From Escherichia coli (GTDB taxonomy: Bacteria; Pseudomonadota; Gammaproteobacteria; Enterobacterales; Enterobacteriaceae), in NCBI RefSeq assembly GCF_011045215.1, contig NZ_CP049201.1: 64,000 bases of DNA. The stretch is one strand, 5' to 3'. Positions 14,701-23,700 of this stretch are shown here, one piece after another (within the stretch, counting starts at the first letter, position 1; each line of letters starts with the position of its first letter). Made by a program: the position numbers.

Positions 14701-17700
14701 ATATTCTGGGGCAGGTTACCCGTGAATACGAACGAAGAATACAGAACTGTCCATCTTTCAGGAGCGAGAAGGAGGTGGAGTCCTGGTTAAATGAACTGTT
14801 TTTTGCTGTGATTGCTCCGCTATACCGTGTTGCTCCCGGACAAACAGAACAGGCTGAATCCTTTATTCTGCAGCTTATTGCGGAGCAGGTTTGGGGACTT
14901 ATTTTAACCAATGATGGTTATTCATGGCATTGTGCCCTTTATGACATGTTATTCTGTCTTGTTTTACGAAACACGAAAGGCCAGCCTGAATATCTGAGAA
15001 AACGAATAACGGAAATAATTAATGAATCTGATATAAGACTGACTGTAGACGAAATTGAATGCCAGATTCAGTATGTTCAGGATAATGAACAAAAGGTGGT
15101 TTTACGTGAGTTGATAAATAATTTGTAATGGACGGGGCATACAATAATTCATGTAAGACCATGGAGAAATGAAAGTGAATATGTTCCTTAAGTATCATGA
15201 TGTAATGTCCACCCTGAAAGGCCGACACCAACATTTTGACAGATTATACAGTCAGTATTGTTCGCTTGAACGCCAGATAGCCAGACTTGAAACTGATTTT
15301 GGAGGAGGATATTCCATGAAAGTCGTGATACTCAAACTTGAGAGACTTGATGTGAAACGGGAGTTACAGACGCTTCTTGAAGAAGAAGCAAAACACTTAA
15401 GGCAGGGACTTAAATAACGTTTTCTTAACAGGAAAAGCGAACTGTTCTTATTGTCGGAGAATGTTATGCGTATTCCATCTTGCAAAGAACCCGGTGAAGG
15501 ACATGTAATACAGGCACTGCGTCAGGCGTATGCCGATAATCCCCGGATATTACCGGGAGACTTATGTGCAAAATTCGACGTATCTGTGTCAACAATGAAA
15601 CGCTGGCTGGCCATGCCAGAGAATGACGTTCAGGCGCTCGTTAATGAAGAAGTGCGGGATATGGCTACTGTTGATGAGGTTATTGAACATTTCTGTCCGA
15701 ACGGACGGGATATACCAGACACGCAGCGTAGATGGCGGCTGTATCAGATTATGCGTGCACTGGAGGACAAGGGCTGGAACAGGATAAAAATTGCCCGTTA
15801 TCTCGGGCTGAATCGGGGGACAGCCCGGTATTATCTTTCAATGTCCGAAGATGAAGTGCAGCGCATCCGGGATATTGCTGAAGGGCGACTGATTATCAAC
15901 GTACGGCGGACAAAAAAACCACTGAAGAAATCAGAACTTCTGGAAATTATTGATGCGCAGAACAAGCTACCAACAATAACACGACCACAGATTTGCGAAG
16001 TTACGGGCCTGAGTATGTCCCGGCTCATGCGGTATCTGGCGTTAAGTCCTGCAGACCGTGAGGCCCTGCTTACTGGTAATAAGTAGCCCACAGATGACAA
16101 CCAGTACATTTACAATGTGTGGCGTTTCCGGAGGGTAATGATAAACCGCTTAATCTCCGGAGCGAGAAAACATCACGCTGACCATCTGATATTCATGGGG
16201 TGGGGAAAATCGTGCATTTTGGTTTTGTTAATTTCCGGGAGACAGGGCATTGATTTCCGGGGGAGATTAAACAAATCTTAATCAAAGAAACAGTTGGAGA
16301 TATGTCGTGATTTTTTTCATCAAGCTTTTAGTATGTTCCTGTATTTTTTGTGTATCTGCTTATTTTCTTGTCGGTGGAATGGTGTCGTTTATCATATGCA
16401 TTACGACAGGGAATTTTTTAATTCCGGACGGGCAGGTGGTGAGAAGTATTATATGGGGGTGTATTACGGGGGCGGTAATTACATTTATTGTAATGTTTTT
16501 TAATCTGATGGACAGACTCAGTTCCCGTAAAAAAACACGGTCAGATTATGAGTGAAATTTCCGCTGGTATAACAAACAGGGTTATGGATATTCTCGTTTA
16601 TGTGGAACATTCAGTTTGTATCGGAACTGGTAAGAACCTGACAGTTACATTCCCAATGTTTTATGGGGCTTCGGGGATATATATAATAGTTTATTGATAC
16701 ATGTTCTGTAGTTATACTGCGTATTCCGCTCTATTCGATCACGGATTTGCATCGAAGTCCGATCAGCGATTCGCATACTTTCGATCAACCGGGAACTTAA
16801 CTTTTTCTACCGCTTTTTAACTCGTTTTTTCGATGCTTTCCACTACCGGGGGGTTTTTCCTCAGGGACTCTCCCTGAAGGACCAGTCTGTGTGAGTTATG
16901 TACCAGTCTGTCCAGGATGGCATCTGCTGTTGTTGGGTTCTCCATCAGACCATGCCATTTATCTACCGGGAACTGGCTTACCACTATCGTGCTGCTTTGA
17001 CCGTAACGATCTTCTATGAGCTCCAGAAGGTCATTACACTGGGCGTTACTTAACTGTTCCAGCCCCAGATCGTCCAGGATTAGAACCTGTATTTTTTGCA
17101 ACTGTTTCAGATATTTCAGCCAGCTGCCATCAACACGTCCCTGAGCCAGTTGTTCCAGTAATCGCCCGGTTCTACAGTACCGGACGCTGTGTTTCTGTCG
17201 ACATGCCTGTTCGCCCAGCGCATTGGCTATCCAGCTCTTGCCACATCCTGTCGGACCGGTTATCAGCAGGTTTTTCCTGTGGGTTATGTAGTGGCCGTTC
17301 AGCAGTTCCCTCATCTGTTCAGCCCGCAGACCTCTTGAGGCCGGATAGCGCAGCCCTTCCGGTGTTGCCTGATATTTCAGGCCGGCATTTTTTCTCAACC
17401 GTGCCACACGGCTGTTTTCCCTGCTCAGAAGCTCGTCATCAACCAGCAGCGTCAGCCTTTCCTCGAACGACAGTTCGTCGTAGGTCTGAGGCGTTTCCCG
17501 CTGCCGTATCAGGCTCCCGGCCATCGCCGGGAGTTTCAGTTGGGTCAGTTTGTTTAACAGATTATCACTCATTCGGTTGTTCCTTCTGTCAGTGGTAGTA
17601 GCCAGGACCACGCAGGTTTTCATGCTCTGAAGCATATGCCGGATGTTGTTCGCCCTGGCGGGATAACGGAAGCTCAACGTTATCCCGATGATGACGCAGC

Positions 17701-20700: not shown

Positions 20701-23700
20701 ATATCACCAACATTCAGAGATTCCAGCTCCTTAATAACCCAGTTTTCCATAGTTCCTCTAAATTATGGTTAATTTATCAACAGAATAACATCACTCGGAT
20801 TTATGGGTAAGGATATGGAATGCCAAACCGTGATCGATTCAGATGCCATTTTGCAGTTATACACTATTGAGTATTATATTGTTATGAAAATATCTGTACT
20901 TATGGAATATTTAATTCTGATGATGGGGCTCTGGTTTGTTGTATGGTTAATTACGGACTGGTTACCTCATATCTGACGGAAAGTGGTATCAGTGTGTATT
21001 CGCATTGACCGGACATCGACATATAACGAATTACGTTCCGGACAAAACTCTCCTGCAGGAAAGGGTAACATTGTATTTTAAACATATTATTCAACCAGTC
21101 ATAAGCATAAACCGACCGCCGTATGTAGCCATTAAGCCAGTATTGGTAACGAAGATACCCACCTTTTCAAAAAGGAAGTGGATAAAAGATAACGAAAATG
21201 CGAAGAGTTGATTAATACATTGAAACAAAATTCATTAATGATGAACTTGGAGAAAAGCTCCATCAAAATACGACACGACCTGTCGTAATTTGTGTTAGCC
21301 AGGAAAGAATATCTACTACTCACTAAAATGATTTAGTGCTGAAAATATTTACAAGCCAATAAATTGACTGGTATTACGGAGTAACGCCCAGGCTATGTTA
21401 ACGAACCCGCTGTTTTATTGGCTCAAAAAACATATCCCAGAGATGTTCAGCCATACCCTCGTTAGTGAGCAAGGTATCCCCTTAGTAGCCAGGGCTGAAG
21501 ATGCCCATTGATGGGCGAAAACCAAGGATCTGGCCGTTAGAACAGTTATGTCGTTAAACACATCACCACCATATGCCATCCGGTTCACTTCGTCGGCCAA
21601 ATTAGTGTGATATTCTTTCCAGAAATGCTGTTGTATCCACGACATAAGGCGATGATTGATGGAGCAGTCTCTCAATTTTGAAATGTTGCGCAGCCAGTGG
21701 CCGGAACTGGCTGAACTCGCGTGTATGGCGGAACGCTATGTTCACTCCGATCCGGAAAGCTGTCTGGTCAAGCTGCGCAACTACACCGAATTGATGGTGC
21801 GCTGGTTGTATCGTCAGGAGCGGTTGCCGGAAGGTATTAAGGCTAATCTTTACGATTTAATGAATGCTGATGTCTTTACCAGCATGATGCCGGAAGCCAT
21901 CATCATGAAAATGGATGCGCTGCGTATCCATGGCAACCGTGCCGCGCACGGCGGACATATCAAAGCTAAAGATACTTACTGGCTGCTCAAAGAAGCGTAT
22001 TTGTTGGGAATTTGGCTGTATGTTCGCTACGCCCACGGTAATGTTGATGACTGCCCCAAATTTACACTCCCTCCATTAACACAATCTTCAGGTCGTGCAG
22101 ATGAAAAACGTCTGGAAGATGCAATCAGGGCTCAGGATGAAAGCCGTGAGCGCGAACTGGCGCTGCAACGCGCACTACAGCAAGAACAGGAAAAGGCCGA
22201 ACACCTCACTCAACGCCTGAATGAAGCCAGAGCGCGTAACCAGCATGTTGCCGATATTCTCTCTATTGATGAAGCGGAAACCCGCCGTCGCCTGATTGAC
22301 TCTCGCCTGCTTGCTGCTGACTGGAATGTAGGCGAAGACCTTAAAAATACCGATCAGGTTACGCAGGAACATCCCGTTAAAGAACAACCTACCGCGACCG
22401 GAGACGGTTATGCGGACTATGTCTTGTGGGATGAGGCACACAAACCGCTGGCGGTGGTGGAAGCAAAAAAAACCAGCGTCAATGCCGAGCAAGGACGAAT
22501 TCAGGCCCGGCTGTATGCAGACTGGCTGGAAAAAGAATACGGCCAGCGTCCGATCATCTTCTACACCAACGGCTATGATATCTGGCTGTGGGATGACCAT
22601 AAAACTCATGGTTATCCCCCGCGTCGGGTGTTTGGCTTCTACAGCAAGGAAAGCCTGCAATATCTTATTCAACAGCGTGAAACCCGTCTGCCGCTGAACA
22701 ATGTGCTGCACGTAAAGGATAACGAAGGTAAGGCCGTTGCCGGACGTTTGTACCAGCTTGAAACCATTGCTCGTGTCAGCGAACGGTTTACCAATAAATA
22801 TCGTCAGTCATTAATCGTTCAGGCCACCGGCACCGGTAAAACCCGTGTAGCGATTACACTGAGCAAACTGATGATAGATGCCCGCTGGGTAAAACGCGTC
22901 CTGTTTCTTTGTGACCGCAAGGAATTACGTAAACAGGCGGCGAATGCCTTTAATCAATTCACCAATGAGCCGCTGTATGTAGTTGGAAAATCGAAAAAAG
23001 CAGACAGGCAGAACGCCAGGATCTACATCGCCACCTATCCAGGCATGATGAAAATCATGGACCATTTCGATGTCGGTTATTTCGATTTGATCATCGCCGA
23101 TGAATCCCACCGCTCTATCTACAACGTCTACGGCGATCTGTTTAAGTATTTTGATGCCCTCCAGATTGGCCTGACGGCCACGCCGATTGACATGGTAAGT
23201 AAAACCACTTTCGGCCTGTTTGGTTGTGAAGGACGTATTCCTACCGCCAACTACAGCCTGGAAGATGCCATCGCCGATAACAATCTGGTTCCCTATGAGG
23301 TTGTCACGCACACCACAGAATTCCTGCGGGAAGGCATCAAACGGGAGAAATTAAGCGACGCACAAATCCGCGAGCTGGAAGAACAAGGCATAGATCCCAA
23401 TACGCTGGAGTTTGATGGCAAGGTGCTGGATGAGGCGATCTACAACAAAGACACCAACCGCTATATCCTGCGTAACCTGATGGAAAATGGCCTGAAAGAT
23501 CGGGACGGCCAGTTGCCAGGTAAAACCATCATTTTCGCCCGTAACCACAAACACGCGCTGCTGTTGAATGAATTGTTCGACGATATGTACCCACAGTTTG
23601 CCGGGCGCTTCTGCTAGGTCATCGACAATTACGATCCCCGTGCCGAGCAACTGATTGATGATTTTAAAGGGCTGGATGAAAGCACCAACAAAGAGCTGAC

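What the first reader, a model, noticed from the sequence alone, without database searches (positions are those of the whole stretch)
16707..20863. IS-within-IS: Tn5-like element inserted into the multi-repeat terminus of an IS21-family element
The IS21-family element has tandem ~22-bp repeats at one end. A 1489-bp IS4-family element with good terminal inverted repeats sits inside this array, flanked by a 9-bp direct duplication (GAATGCCAA), the target duplication length typical of Tn5-like transposition. Disrupting the IS21 binding-site array probably immobilises that element, and the composite separates the OLD/PerC block from the R-M block.
Basis: seen in the sequence. Interest (0 to 1): 0.3.

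Follow-up and report, generated by a model that had tools for sequence, protein, structure and literature searches.

The report
Tn5-like IS that targets IS21 ends
A small Tn5-like jumping gene sits inside the end of another jumping gene (IS21 family), and comparison with other genomes shows it was aimed there: this element and its relatives repeatedly insert midway between two GATC motifs, a spacing that IS21-family ends supply.

Summary
An ISSso4-type IS21-family element (16718-20855, 7-bp target duplication GTTATAC) carries a 1490-bp IS50-subgroup (Tn5-like) element (19328-20817) flanked by the 9-bp duplication GAATGCCAA. Deleting the insert plus one 9-mer recreates an end found uninterrupted in 316 E. 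coli records. E. coli C5 has the empty outer site.

The insertion is not a chance event. The same element (99.9-100% identical) occupies this 9-mer in both orientations in diverged ISSso4 copies. It also sits in a second ISSso4 repeat junction and in the array of an unrelated IS21-family element, ISEc12. Relatives down to about 50% protein identity, including ones from bog metagenomes, also sit in IS21-family end arrays.

Of 31 distinct flanks, 22 have GATC exactly 14 nt from the IS end (background 0.0036). The target is therefore GATC-N5-[9 bp]-N5-GATC, which corresponds to 23-bp-spaced IstA-binding repeats.

The insert separates the terminal repeat from the second one. IstA of IS5376 needs both repeats next to the terminus, so the host element is probably immobilised; this is inferred, not tested.

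The nesting itself is ordinary. The target rule and the association with IS21 ends were not found in the literature searched here. Interest is moderate.

The parts
16711..16717 (.). Left copy of the 7-bp target duplication (GTTATAC) made by the IS21-family element
   Evidence: a single GTTATAC is present at the empty site in E. coli C5.
16718..20855 (-). ISSso4-type IS21-family element, interrupted. It is 4138 bp as found and 2639 bp once the insert and one 9-mer are removed.
   Evidence: Ends were defined by alignment with uninterrupted copies L003, L004 and L090. The termini are TG...CA.
16718..16790 (-). istB-proximal end (IRR) with about three IstA-type repeats. GATC spacings are 24 and 22 bp, so there is no 23-bp interval.
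16817..17572 (-). istB, the helper AAA+ ATPase (251 aa), intact
   Evidence: Pfam IstB_IS21 E 4e-60.
17589..19124 (-). istA, the DDE transposase (511 aa), intact
   Evidence: NCBIfam transpos_IS21 E 2e-85; rve and Mu-transpos_C_2 domains.
19228..19327 (-). Inner part of the istA-proximal repeat array: repeats L5 to L2, each of the form TGGCAT-N7/8-CGATCA when read inward from the terminus
19263..19289 (.). Second, unoccupied GATC-N19-GATC interval (L3|L4 junction; central 9-mer TGATGCCAA at 19272-19280). The same IS uses this junction in E. coli C5.
19319..19327 (.). Copy 1 of the 9-bp target duplication GAATGCCAA
19328..20817 (-). IS50-subgroup (Tn5-like) IS4-family insertion sequence, 1490 bp, with ends CATACCCTTACCCACAAGT / CATATCCTTACCCATAAAT
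   Evidence: It is 100% identical to the copies in E. coli 357900 and C5.
19335..20750 (-). Transposase gene (471 aa) with N-terminal DNA-binding, DDE/YREK catalytic and Tn5-type dimerisation domains. It runs in the same direction as istA and lies upstream of it.
20818..20826 (.). Copy 2 of the 9-bp target duplication GAATGCCAA
20827..20855 (-). Detached terminal 29 bp of the IS21-family element: repeat L1 plus the ...TTTTGCA terminus
20856..20862 (.). Right copy of the 7-bp target duplication GTTATAC

Best explanation
Shown:
- An ISSso4-type IS21-family element inserted into the intergenic DNA between the PerC/HTH genes and hsdR, duplicating GTTATAC.
- A 1490-bp IS50-subgroup element then inserted by its own Tn5-type cut-and-paste transposase into the istA-proximal end of that element. 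The target lies 30-38 bp from the terminus, at the boundary between the first (L1) and second (L2) IstA-binding repeats, and the insertion duplicated GAATGCCAA.
- The site is a preferred target. This IS and its relatives insert so that a GATC lies 5 bp outside each end of the 9-bp staggered cut (GATC-N5-[N9]-N5-GATC).
- IS21-family ends are arrays of repeats, each with a GATC core, typically 23 bp apart. They therefore offer exactly such sites. ISSso4 has two at its istA-proximal end and none at the other end.

Inferred:
- The two subunits of the transposase dimer each read a GATC-containing arm of the target. IS21-family ends are the main natural supply of correctly phased pairs, and they are harmless places to land, so the IS accumulates there.
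- Splitting L1 from L2 by 1.5 kb most likely disables that end of the IS21-family element.
- The IS50-like element itself looks fully functional.
For: Structure and empty sites.

Functional transposase: all three Tn5-type domains are present, and the DTT, DRE and YREK motifs align with Tn5 transposase.

Recurrence. The same IS (99.9-100% identical) is found in these contexts:
(a) At GAATGCCAA in the window and in E. coli 357900. The outer duplications differ (GTTATAC vs CCCTGAC). The ISSso4 backbones differ by 2.5%, including two differences within 5 bp of the junction, while the insert shows no differences in 1490 bp.
(b) At the same 9-mer in the opposite orientation, in E. coli C5 and in metagenome contig L008.
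(c) At the L3|L4 junction (TGATGCCAA) in C5.
(d) In the repeat array of ISEc12, whose IstA is only 46% identical, with a clean ATAACATCG duplication. The restored ISEc12 site is 100% identical to more than 1900 uninterrupted copies.

Interrupted ISSso4 backbones are interspersed among uninterrupted ones.

Relatives at 84-86%, 60%, 57%, 55%, 52% and 41% protein identity also lie in IS21-type arrays or termini, including in bog metagenomes, and in both orientations.

Control: of 59 loci of more distant relatives, only 1-2 have IS21 genes nearby.

Target rule: GATC lies exactly 14 nt from the IS end in 22 of 31 distinct flank types, at 13 nt in 3, and at 12 nt in the 3 flanks of a subtype that makes 7-bp duplications. 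Background is 0.0036.

In ISSso4 only the two intervals with 23-bp GATC spacing are used. The 24- and 22-bp intervals, and the whole other end, are not.

The rule also holds at sites with no visible IS21 array (L093, L096, L097), which favours direct read-out.

Immobilisation: IS21-family repeats are spaced 23 bp, and IstA needs two complete repeats in the end for integration (PMC10122671).
Against: - No experiment has been done. Target choice is inferred only from insertions that survived in genomes, so selection against insertions in genes inflates the apparent preference for IS21-family ends.
- GATC-N19-GATC should occur by chance roughly once per 130 kb (0.49 expected in this window). If the GATC arms were the only determinant, many insertions outside IS21 arrays would be expected, and few were seen.
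- Several loci come from short contigs where only one flank is visible.
- Some flanks have 13 nt rather than 14. One relative (L097) has GATC on one arm only. Three flank types have none.
- Three of the E. coli contexts share one orientation, which a moving composite would also produce.
- The requirement for two adjacent repeats was shown for IS5376, not for ISSso4.
Confidence: 0.8

Rival explanations
1. Protein-directed targeting. The IS50-like transposase recognises DNA bound and bent by IstA (or another protein that binds phased GATC sites) at the junction between two repeats, not the GATC bases themselves. It would then be a dedicated parasite of active IS21-family elements.
For: - About 80% of flank types are IS21-family arrays or termini.
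- The preferred ISSso4 site is the L1|L2 junction.
- In the IS5376 complex the end is bent about 70 degrees, most sharply near the R1-R2 junction (PMC10122671).
- From established knowledge, Tn10- and Tn5-type transposases strongly bend their targets, and IS231A specificity has been linked to bending (Hallet 1994, cited).
- Far fewer insertions outside IS21 arrays are seen than the chance frequency of GATC pairs would predict.
Against: - The istB-proximal end of ISSso4 also binds IstA but is never hit, and its GATC spacings are 24 and 22.
- In ISEc12 and in C5 the L3|L4 junction is used, not L1|L2.
- The 14-nt rule persists at sites with no IS21 array (L093, L096, L097).
- It also persists across hosts whose IstA proteins are only 37-46% identical.
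Confidence: 0.2
2. One ancestral insertion followed by hitch-hiking. The IS entered an IS21-family end once, and the composite then spread by IS21-type transposition and recombination, so recurrence reflects descent rather than targeting.
For: The composite is found at three different outer sites in the same relative orientation: the window, E. coli 357900/Ceylon31, and the ST131/VR50-type island. In the bog metagenomes, four contigs show the same tnp-istA-istB arrangement.
Against: - Between the window and 357900 the insert shows 0 differences in 1490 bp, against 2.5% in the surrounding ISSso4, including the 29-bp terminal piece, which is too short for recombination.
- Both orientations occur at the same 9-mer.
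- The same IS is present in ISEc12, which shows no detectable DNA similarity to ISSso4.
- The target duplications are clean and identical.
- Interrupted backbones are interspersed with empty ones.
- The split end probably cannot be used by IstA.
Confidence: 0.06
3. Chance nesting. An unselective IS happened to land in another IS, where insertions are tolerated. This is the reading implicit in the first-stage note.
For: Insertion sequences nested in other insertion sequences are common, and Tn5 itself has only a weak target consensus (established knowledge).
Against: The identical 9-bp site is reused, and the GATC phase is exact in 22 of 31 flank types against a background of 0.0036. Only the 23-bp intervals are used.
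Confidence: 0.02

Closest known systems
IS50 / Tn5 (IS4 family, IS50 subgroup)
   Same: Same three-domain transposase architecture, with conserved DDE and YREK residues (E 2e-25 to PDB 1MUH and related entries). One ORF, a 9-bp target duplication, and a 1490-bp length within the 1350-1550 range. The ends fit the subgroup consensus CW------Y---CA-A--W- and match 14 of 19 positions of the Tn5 outside end.
   Different: Only about a quarter of aligned residues are identical. The ends start CA rather than CT. Tn5's known target consensus (A-GNTYWRANC-T, from memory) is weak and lies within the duplication. Here the specificity lies 5 bp outside the duplication, as a GATC on each arm.
ISSso4 and ISEc12 (IS21 family; model systems IS21 and IS5376)
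   Same: istA and istB genes, TG...CA termini, multiple direct repeats spaced about 23 bp at both ends, and a short target duplication (7 bp here; 5 bp for ISEc12). The restored element is 97-98.7% identical to uninterrupted RefSeq 'ISSso4 family' copies.
   Different: This copy has its L1 and L2 repeats separated by a 1.5-kb foreign IS. Whether that blocks transposition was not tested.
IS231A inserting into the terminal repeats of Tn4430
   Same: An IS4-family element with marked insertion specificity that favours the ends of another transposon, with target DNA bending implicated. The references are listed; the Tn4430 preference itself is from memory.
   Different: Different subgroup (IS231), different hosts (Bacillus), a different target consensus and 10-12-bp duplications. 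The prey there is a Tn3-family transposon.
IS4321 / IS5075 (IS1111-type) in the terminal inverted repeats of Tn21-family transposons, and Tn5053-type 'res hunters'
   Same: Mobile elements whose preferred target is a functional site of another transposon. They insert at a fixed position and often disable the host element (literature located; details from memory).
   Different: These have unrelated transposases and chemistry, show a single orientation, and make no target duplication in the case of IS4321/IS5075.
IS10 / Tn10 symmetric hot-spot consensus (NGCTNAGCN)
   Same: A symmetric target signal read by a dimeric IS4-family transpososome, with flanking context contributing (from memory).
   Different: The IS10 signal lies inside the 9-bp duplication. 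Here it lies outside, on both arms.

Membership tests
IS4 family, IS50 subgroup | Single-ORF DDE transposase with the Y-(2)-R-(3)-E-(6)-K motif | tested here: met
   One 471-aa ORF. The alignment to Tn5 transposase shows LQDTT, VSDREGDI and YLLRWQIEVFFKVLK conserved. Pfam DDE_Tnp_1; NCBIfam transpos_IS4_3 E 1.5e-103.
IS4 family, IS50 subgroup | Tn5-type N-terminal DNA-binding and C-terminal dimerisation domains | tested here: met
   PF14706 E 1e-16 and PF02281 E 5e-14.
IS4 family, IS50 subgroup | Size 1350-1550 bp, ends CW------Y---CA-A--W-, and direct repeats of 8-9 bp (Table 1 of PMC2266710) | tested here: met
   1490 bp; CATACCCTTACCCACAAGTT fits every specified position; 9-bp GAATGCCAA duplication.
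IS4 family, IS50 subgroup | Named entry in ISfinder | not testable with these tools
   ISfinder is not available here. RefSeq calls the protein only 'IS4 family transposase' (WP_072301575.1).
IS21 family (ISSso4 type) | istA (HTH + DDE + Mu-type C-terminal domain) followed by istB (AAA+ helper) | tested here: met
   Both ORFs are intact (511 and 251 aa).
IS21 family (ISSso4 type) | TG...CA termini with multiple direct repeats spaced about 23 bp at each end | tested here: met
   TGCGTATT... and ...TTTTGCA. There are five or six units at the istA end and three at the istB end. The 23-bp spacing is as described for the family.
IS21 family (ISSso4 type) | Short target duplication (4-8 bp) and an empty site | tested here: met
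   7-bp GTTATAC. The empty site is present in E. coli C5 at 100% identity over 678 bp.
IS21 family (ISSso4 type) | Near-identity to the ISSso4 reference | tested here: inconclusive
   RefSeq labels the 97-98.7% identical copies 'IS21-like element ISSso4 family'. The ISfinder reference sequence itself could not be compared.
Transposon-end-hunting insertion sequences (functional class; e.g. IS231A/Tn4430, IS4321/IS5075) | Repeated independent insertions at the same position of another transposon's end | tested here: met
   At least five contexts in ISSso4, in both orientations, plus ISEc12, plus relatives in other IS21-family ends.
Transposon-end-hunting insertion sequences (functional class; e.g. 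IS231A/Tn4430, IS4321/IS5075) | Target preference demonstrated by transposition assay | not testable with these tools
   Requires in vivo or in vitro transposition experiments.

The most novel reading that the evidence does not exclude
A whole clade of Tn5-like insertion sequences, from enterobacteria to bog bacteria, is specialised to parasitise IS21-family elements. It recognises the IstA-organised junction between 23-bp-phased end repeats (GATC-N19-GATC), lands there in either orientation, and disables the host element's end. That would be a conflict between transposons, with a simple, engineerable target code read outside the duplicated bases.
Probability: 0.3. Interest if true: 0.75.

Novelty: new variant of a known kind. 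Interest (0 to 1): 0.55.

Why it matters
One insertion sequence nested in another is routine annotation detail. What makes this case worth attention is the rule behind it.

- It gives a Tn5-type transposase a sharp, symmetric target code (GATC 5 bp outside each cut). Mutating the GATCs or changing the spacing would test it directly. Tn5 is valued as a near-random tool, so a close structural relative with a defined target could show how target DNA is read by this enzyme class.
- It explains why these elements are rare, single-copy, and found almost only inside IS21-family ends.
- It shows one transposon family systematically landing in, and probably inactivating, another.
- For genome annotation, it predicts where to look for these elements and explains assembly breaks and inversions at IS21 ends.
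- For this locus, it implies that the ISSso4 copy is a dead end while the inner IS is probably still mobile.

Tried and rejected
- Exact-pattern scan of GTDB species representatives for the IS end found nothing. The protein-pattern scan returned only distant relatives (44% identity or less), which served as a control rather than as new cases.
- The plasmid collection holds no intact copy of the IS, only fragments.
- Promoter and terminator scans around the junction were uninformative, at or below shuffle expectation for promoters. Nothing is claimed about istA expression.
- I considered that the 9-mer sequence itself (NNATGCCAA) is the target. Rejected: near-identical 9-mers in repeats L2|L3 and L4|L5 are not used, and the ISEc12 target (ATAACATCG) is unrelated.
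- I considered a fixed distance from the terminus (the L1|L2 junction only). Rejected: C5 and ISEc12 use the L3|L4 junction.
- I considered the composite moving as a unit. This is disfavoured by 0% versus 2.5% divergence and by the presence of both orientations.
- Literature searches for a prior description (ISSso4; IS4/IS21 target specificity; IS21/IS50 insertion specificity) found none. The IS4-family review does not mention GATC or IS21. Hallet 1991 (PMC208117) is not held, so the IS231A/Tn4430 statement rests on memory and on reference titles.
- The 74% relative next to ompC (L006 type) has an IS21-like terminus in its flank but a 13-nt spacing, and its other end is truncated. It counts only as weak support.

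
Full report
**1. What is in the window**

Reading 16400-21200 and the repeat search confirm two nested mobile elements.

The inner one spans 19328-20817 (1490 bp). Its terminal inverted repeats are CATACCCTTACCCA and CATATCCTTACCCA. A perfect 9-bp direct repeat, GAATGCCAA, flanks it at 19319-19327 and 20818-20826. It carries one 471-aa ORF (19335-20750, minus strand).

That ORF has the three Tn5-transposase domains: Tnp_DNA_bind, DDE_Tnp_1 and Dimer_Tnp_Tn5. It matches NCBIfam transpos_IS4_3 at E 1.5e-103. It aligns with the solved Tn5 transposase (1MUH and others, E 2e-25) with the DTT, DRE and YREK catalytic motifs conserved.

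Length, 9-bp duplication and end sequence all fit the IS50 subgroup as defined in Table 1 of De Palmenaer et al. 2008: 1350-1550 bp, ends CW------Y---CA-A--W-, direct repeats of 8-9 bp (PMC2266710). The length is 1490 bp rather than 1489, and the stretch to delete is 19328-20826.

**2. The outer element and its true ends**

istB (16817-17572) and istA (17589-19124) are intact and typical of the IS21 family. RefSeq annotates near-identical copies as 'IS21-like element ISSso4 family'.

Aligning the window with uninterrupted copies (L003, L004, L090) places the ends at 16718 (TGCGTATTCC...) and 20855 (...CATTTTGCA). The 7 bp outside each end are identical: GTTATAC at 16711-16717 and 20856-20862. 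That is the target duplication of the IS21-family element.

Other copies have their own 7-bp duplications: GTATGAC in L003 and CCCTGAC in L001.

**3. Both empty-site tests pass**

- Removing 19328-20826 gives a continuous array. The restored 276-bp junction is present uninterrupted in 316 E. coli records at 96-100% identity, and the whole restored element is 98.3% identical, without gaps, to an uninterrupted copy.
- Joining the outer flanks with one GTTATAC gives a sequence 100% identical over 678 bp to E. coli C5. In C5 the PerC/HTH genes and the type I restriction-modification genes are contiguous. The same island is 97.5-98.7% identical to the window overall.

**4. The site is recurrent, not accidental**

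The same IS occurs in several independent contexts.

- *E. coli 357900 and Ceylon31 (L001).* Same position, orientation and 9-bp duplication, but a different outer duplication (CCCTGAC). The insert is 100% identical to the window's, while the surrounding ISSso4 differs by 2.5%: 65 differences on the left, plus two within 5 bp of the junction in the 29-bp terminal piece. Both terminal variants (ACCGTG and ACTGCG) also exist in uninterrupted copies.
- *About 40 ST131/VR50-type genomes and two metagenome contigs.* Same position and orientation, with a 96.8% identical insert. The left part has been replaced by IS66.
- *E. coli C5 (L005).* A 100% identical insert in the opposite orientation. One end abuts the same 9-mer of the terminal repeat. 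The other abuts TGATGCCAA of the L3|L4 junction, with the 38 bp in between deleted.
- *Metagenome contig L008.* Opposite orientation, the other ISSso4 variant, and a different flank.
- *An E. coli assembly and a sequencing run (L015, L016).* A 99.87% identical insert lies in the repeat array of a different IS21-family element. RefSeq calls that element ISEc12. Its IstA is 46% identical to that of ISSso4 and there is no DNA similarity between them. The duplication is a clean ATAACATCG. The restored sequence is 100% identical over 321 bp to more than 1900 uninterrupted ISEc12 copies.

A distance matrix of ISSso4 backbones shows that interrupted copies do not cluster together. They are interspersed among uninterrupted copies. 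Independent, repeated insertion is the only simple reading.

**5. The habit is shared by a clade**

A protein search and context look-ups show relatives in the same kind of place:

| Relative (protein identity) | Context |
|---|---|
| 84% (L017) | Flanked by TGATGCCAG on both sides inside an ISSso4-like array |
| 86%, Salmonella (L018) | Flank made of IS21-type repeats |
| 57%, bog metagenomes | Next to istA/istB in 5 of 6 places, both orientations, 7-bp duplication |
| 52% (two types), 55%, 60% | Flanks contain IS21-type termini and repeats, or the start of istA |
| 41%, Flavobacteriales genome (L037) | Abuts an IS21-type terminus next to an intact IS21-family element |

As a control, among 59 loci of more distant relatives (44% identity or less) from GTDB genomes, only L037 has istA/istB adjacent. 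One other (L074) has them 3 kb away.

**6. The target rule**

Across all loci I collected every distinct flank next to an IS end of this clade.

| Distance from IS end to GATC | Flank types (of 31) |
|---|---|
| Exactly 14 nt (9-bp duplication + 5) | 22 |
| 13 nt | 3 |
| 12 nt (the subtype with 7-bp duplications, again 5 nt outside) | 3 |
| No GATC | 3 |

The background frequency of GATC at that offset in the same sequences is 0.0036.

Where both flanks of a clean insertion are known, the GATC is on both arms in the window, ISEc12, L017, L093 and the bog type. It is on one arm only in L097. The target is therefore GATC-N5-[duplicated bases]-N5-GATC.

Measured from the terminus, GATC starts in the ISSso4 istA-proximal end at 21, 44, 68, 91 and 113, giving spacings of 23, 24, 23 and 22. 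The two 23-bp intervals (targets at 30-38 and 77-85) are exactly the two that are used. The istB-proximal end has spacings of 24 and 22 and is never hit. In ISEc12 the target at 76-84 lies in a 23-bp interval.

In the 64-kb window, GATC-N19-GATC occurs only at the unoccupied L3|L4 site, plus the disrupted site. The chance expectation is 0.49.

**7. Mechanism**

*Shown.* The anatomy, the intact Tn5-type transposase, the duplications, the recurrence and the GATC phase are all direct results.

*Inferred.* A dimeric Tn5-type transpososome captures target DNA so that each subunit contacts a GATC-containing arm 5 bp outside its cut. IS21-family ends consist of IstA-binding repeats, each with a GATC core. 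The 23-bp spacing of these repeats is a family feature noted in the IS5376 structural work (PMC10122671). These ends are therefore the main natural source of correctly phased GATC pairs, and they are harmless places to land.

Direct read-out is favoured because:
- the rule holds at sites with no IS21 array (L093, L096, L097);
- it holds across hosts whose IstA proteins are only 37-46% identical;
- the IstA-bound istB-proximal end is avoided.

The main rival is recognition of IstA-bent DNA at repeat junctions. IS5376 ends are bent about 70 degrees near the R1-R2 junction. This rival is not excluded. It is encouraged by the scarcity of insertions at the random GATC pairs that a genome must contain, although survivorship could explain that scarcity. 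Dam methylation of these sites may also matter; that was not tested.

**8. Consequence for the host element**

The insert separates L1 plus the terminus (20827-20855) from L2-L5 (19228-19327). The 9-bp duplication leaves both repeats intact in sequence.

I found no evidence that a composite has moved as a unit. The inner IS looks fully functional, and its transposase gene runs in the same direction as istA.

**9. Novelty and score**

Nested insertion sequences, and insertion sequences that hunt the ends of other transposons (IS231A/Tn4430; IS4321/IS5075/Tn21), are known kinds. I found no description of an IS50-subgroup clade targeting IS21-family ends, or of a GATC-N5 arm rule. ISfinder could not be consulted.

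I rate it a new variant of a known kind, with moderate interest (0.55). It is ordinary as an annotation. It is unexpectedly regular and directly testable as a target-selection rule.

Noticed in passing
window 23615-23617 (within hsdR, 21707-25072): The type I restriction subunit gene is full length (1121 codons, 99.3% identical to E. coli C5) but carries a TAG stop at codon 637. Restriction is probably inactive in this strain, while the M and S genes follow.
   Followed up: partly
window ~9738 versus L007 8693-12614 (E. coli C5): Relative to the window, C5 has an extra segment of about 3.9 kb containing an IS110-family transposase and a diverged (94.5%) duplicate of the T6SS-fragment / AAA-ATPase / exonuclease block.
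   Followed up: no
L019-L024 (bog metagenome contigs): The 57%-identical relative makes 7-bp duplications (TAATTAT) in intervals where the GATCs are 17 nt apart. The cut stays 5 nt from each GATC while the duplication length changes. This is odd if the stagger is fixed by transpososome geometry.
   Followed up: partly
L095, L022, L019, L026-L028, L091; also L005 (E. coli C5): Several copies are flanked by two different 9-mers, or by inverted IS21-end fragments, yet each flank obeys the 14-nt rule. This suggests recombination between copies in different IS21-family ends (inversions, deletions and chimeric IS21 ends). In C5 it deleted 38 bp of the array.
   Followed up: partly
window 16711-16717 and 20856-20862; L001, L003, L004: The 7-bp duplications of four ISSso4 copies all end in AC or A (GTTATAC, GTATGAC, CCCTGAC, CTCATA[C]). 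This hints at a target preference of ISSso4 itself. Three other right flanks do not show it.
   Followed up: no
window 16718-16790 and 19228-20855; L015, L020, L026, L037: Every repeat unit of every IS21-family end seen here contains a GATC (CGATCA core). IstA binding in these elements may therefore be sensitive to Dam methylation.
   Followed up: no
L002, L014 (E. coli VR50, ST131-type, FDAARGOS_536): An older, decayed copy of the same composite lies next to the afa/dra adhesin operon in the pheV-type island. Its transposase is split into two ORFs, its 9-bp repeat is degenerate, and the istB side has been replaced by IS66. It is present in about 40 complete genomes.
   Followed up: partly
L006, L009, L011, L013 (next to ompC in several E. 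coli): A 74%-identical relative, truncated by IS5, has the same first ~40 bp as the window's IS. Its flank looks like an IS21-type terminus plus one repeat (TGCGCGTTTTTATCC...GATCACCG), with 13-nt rather than 14-nt spacing.
   Followed up: partly
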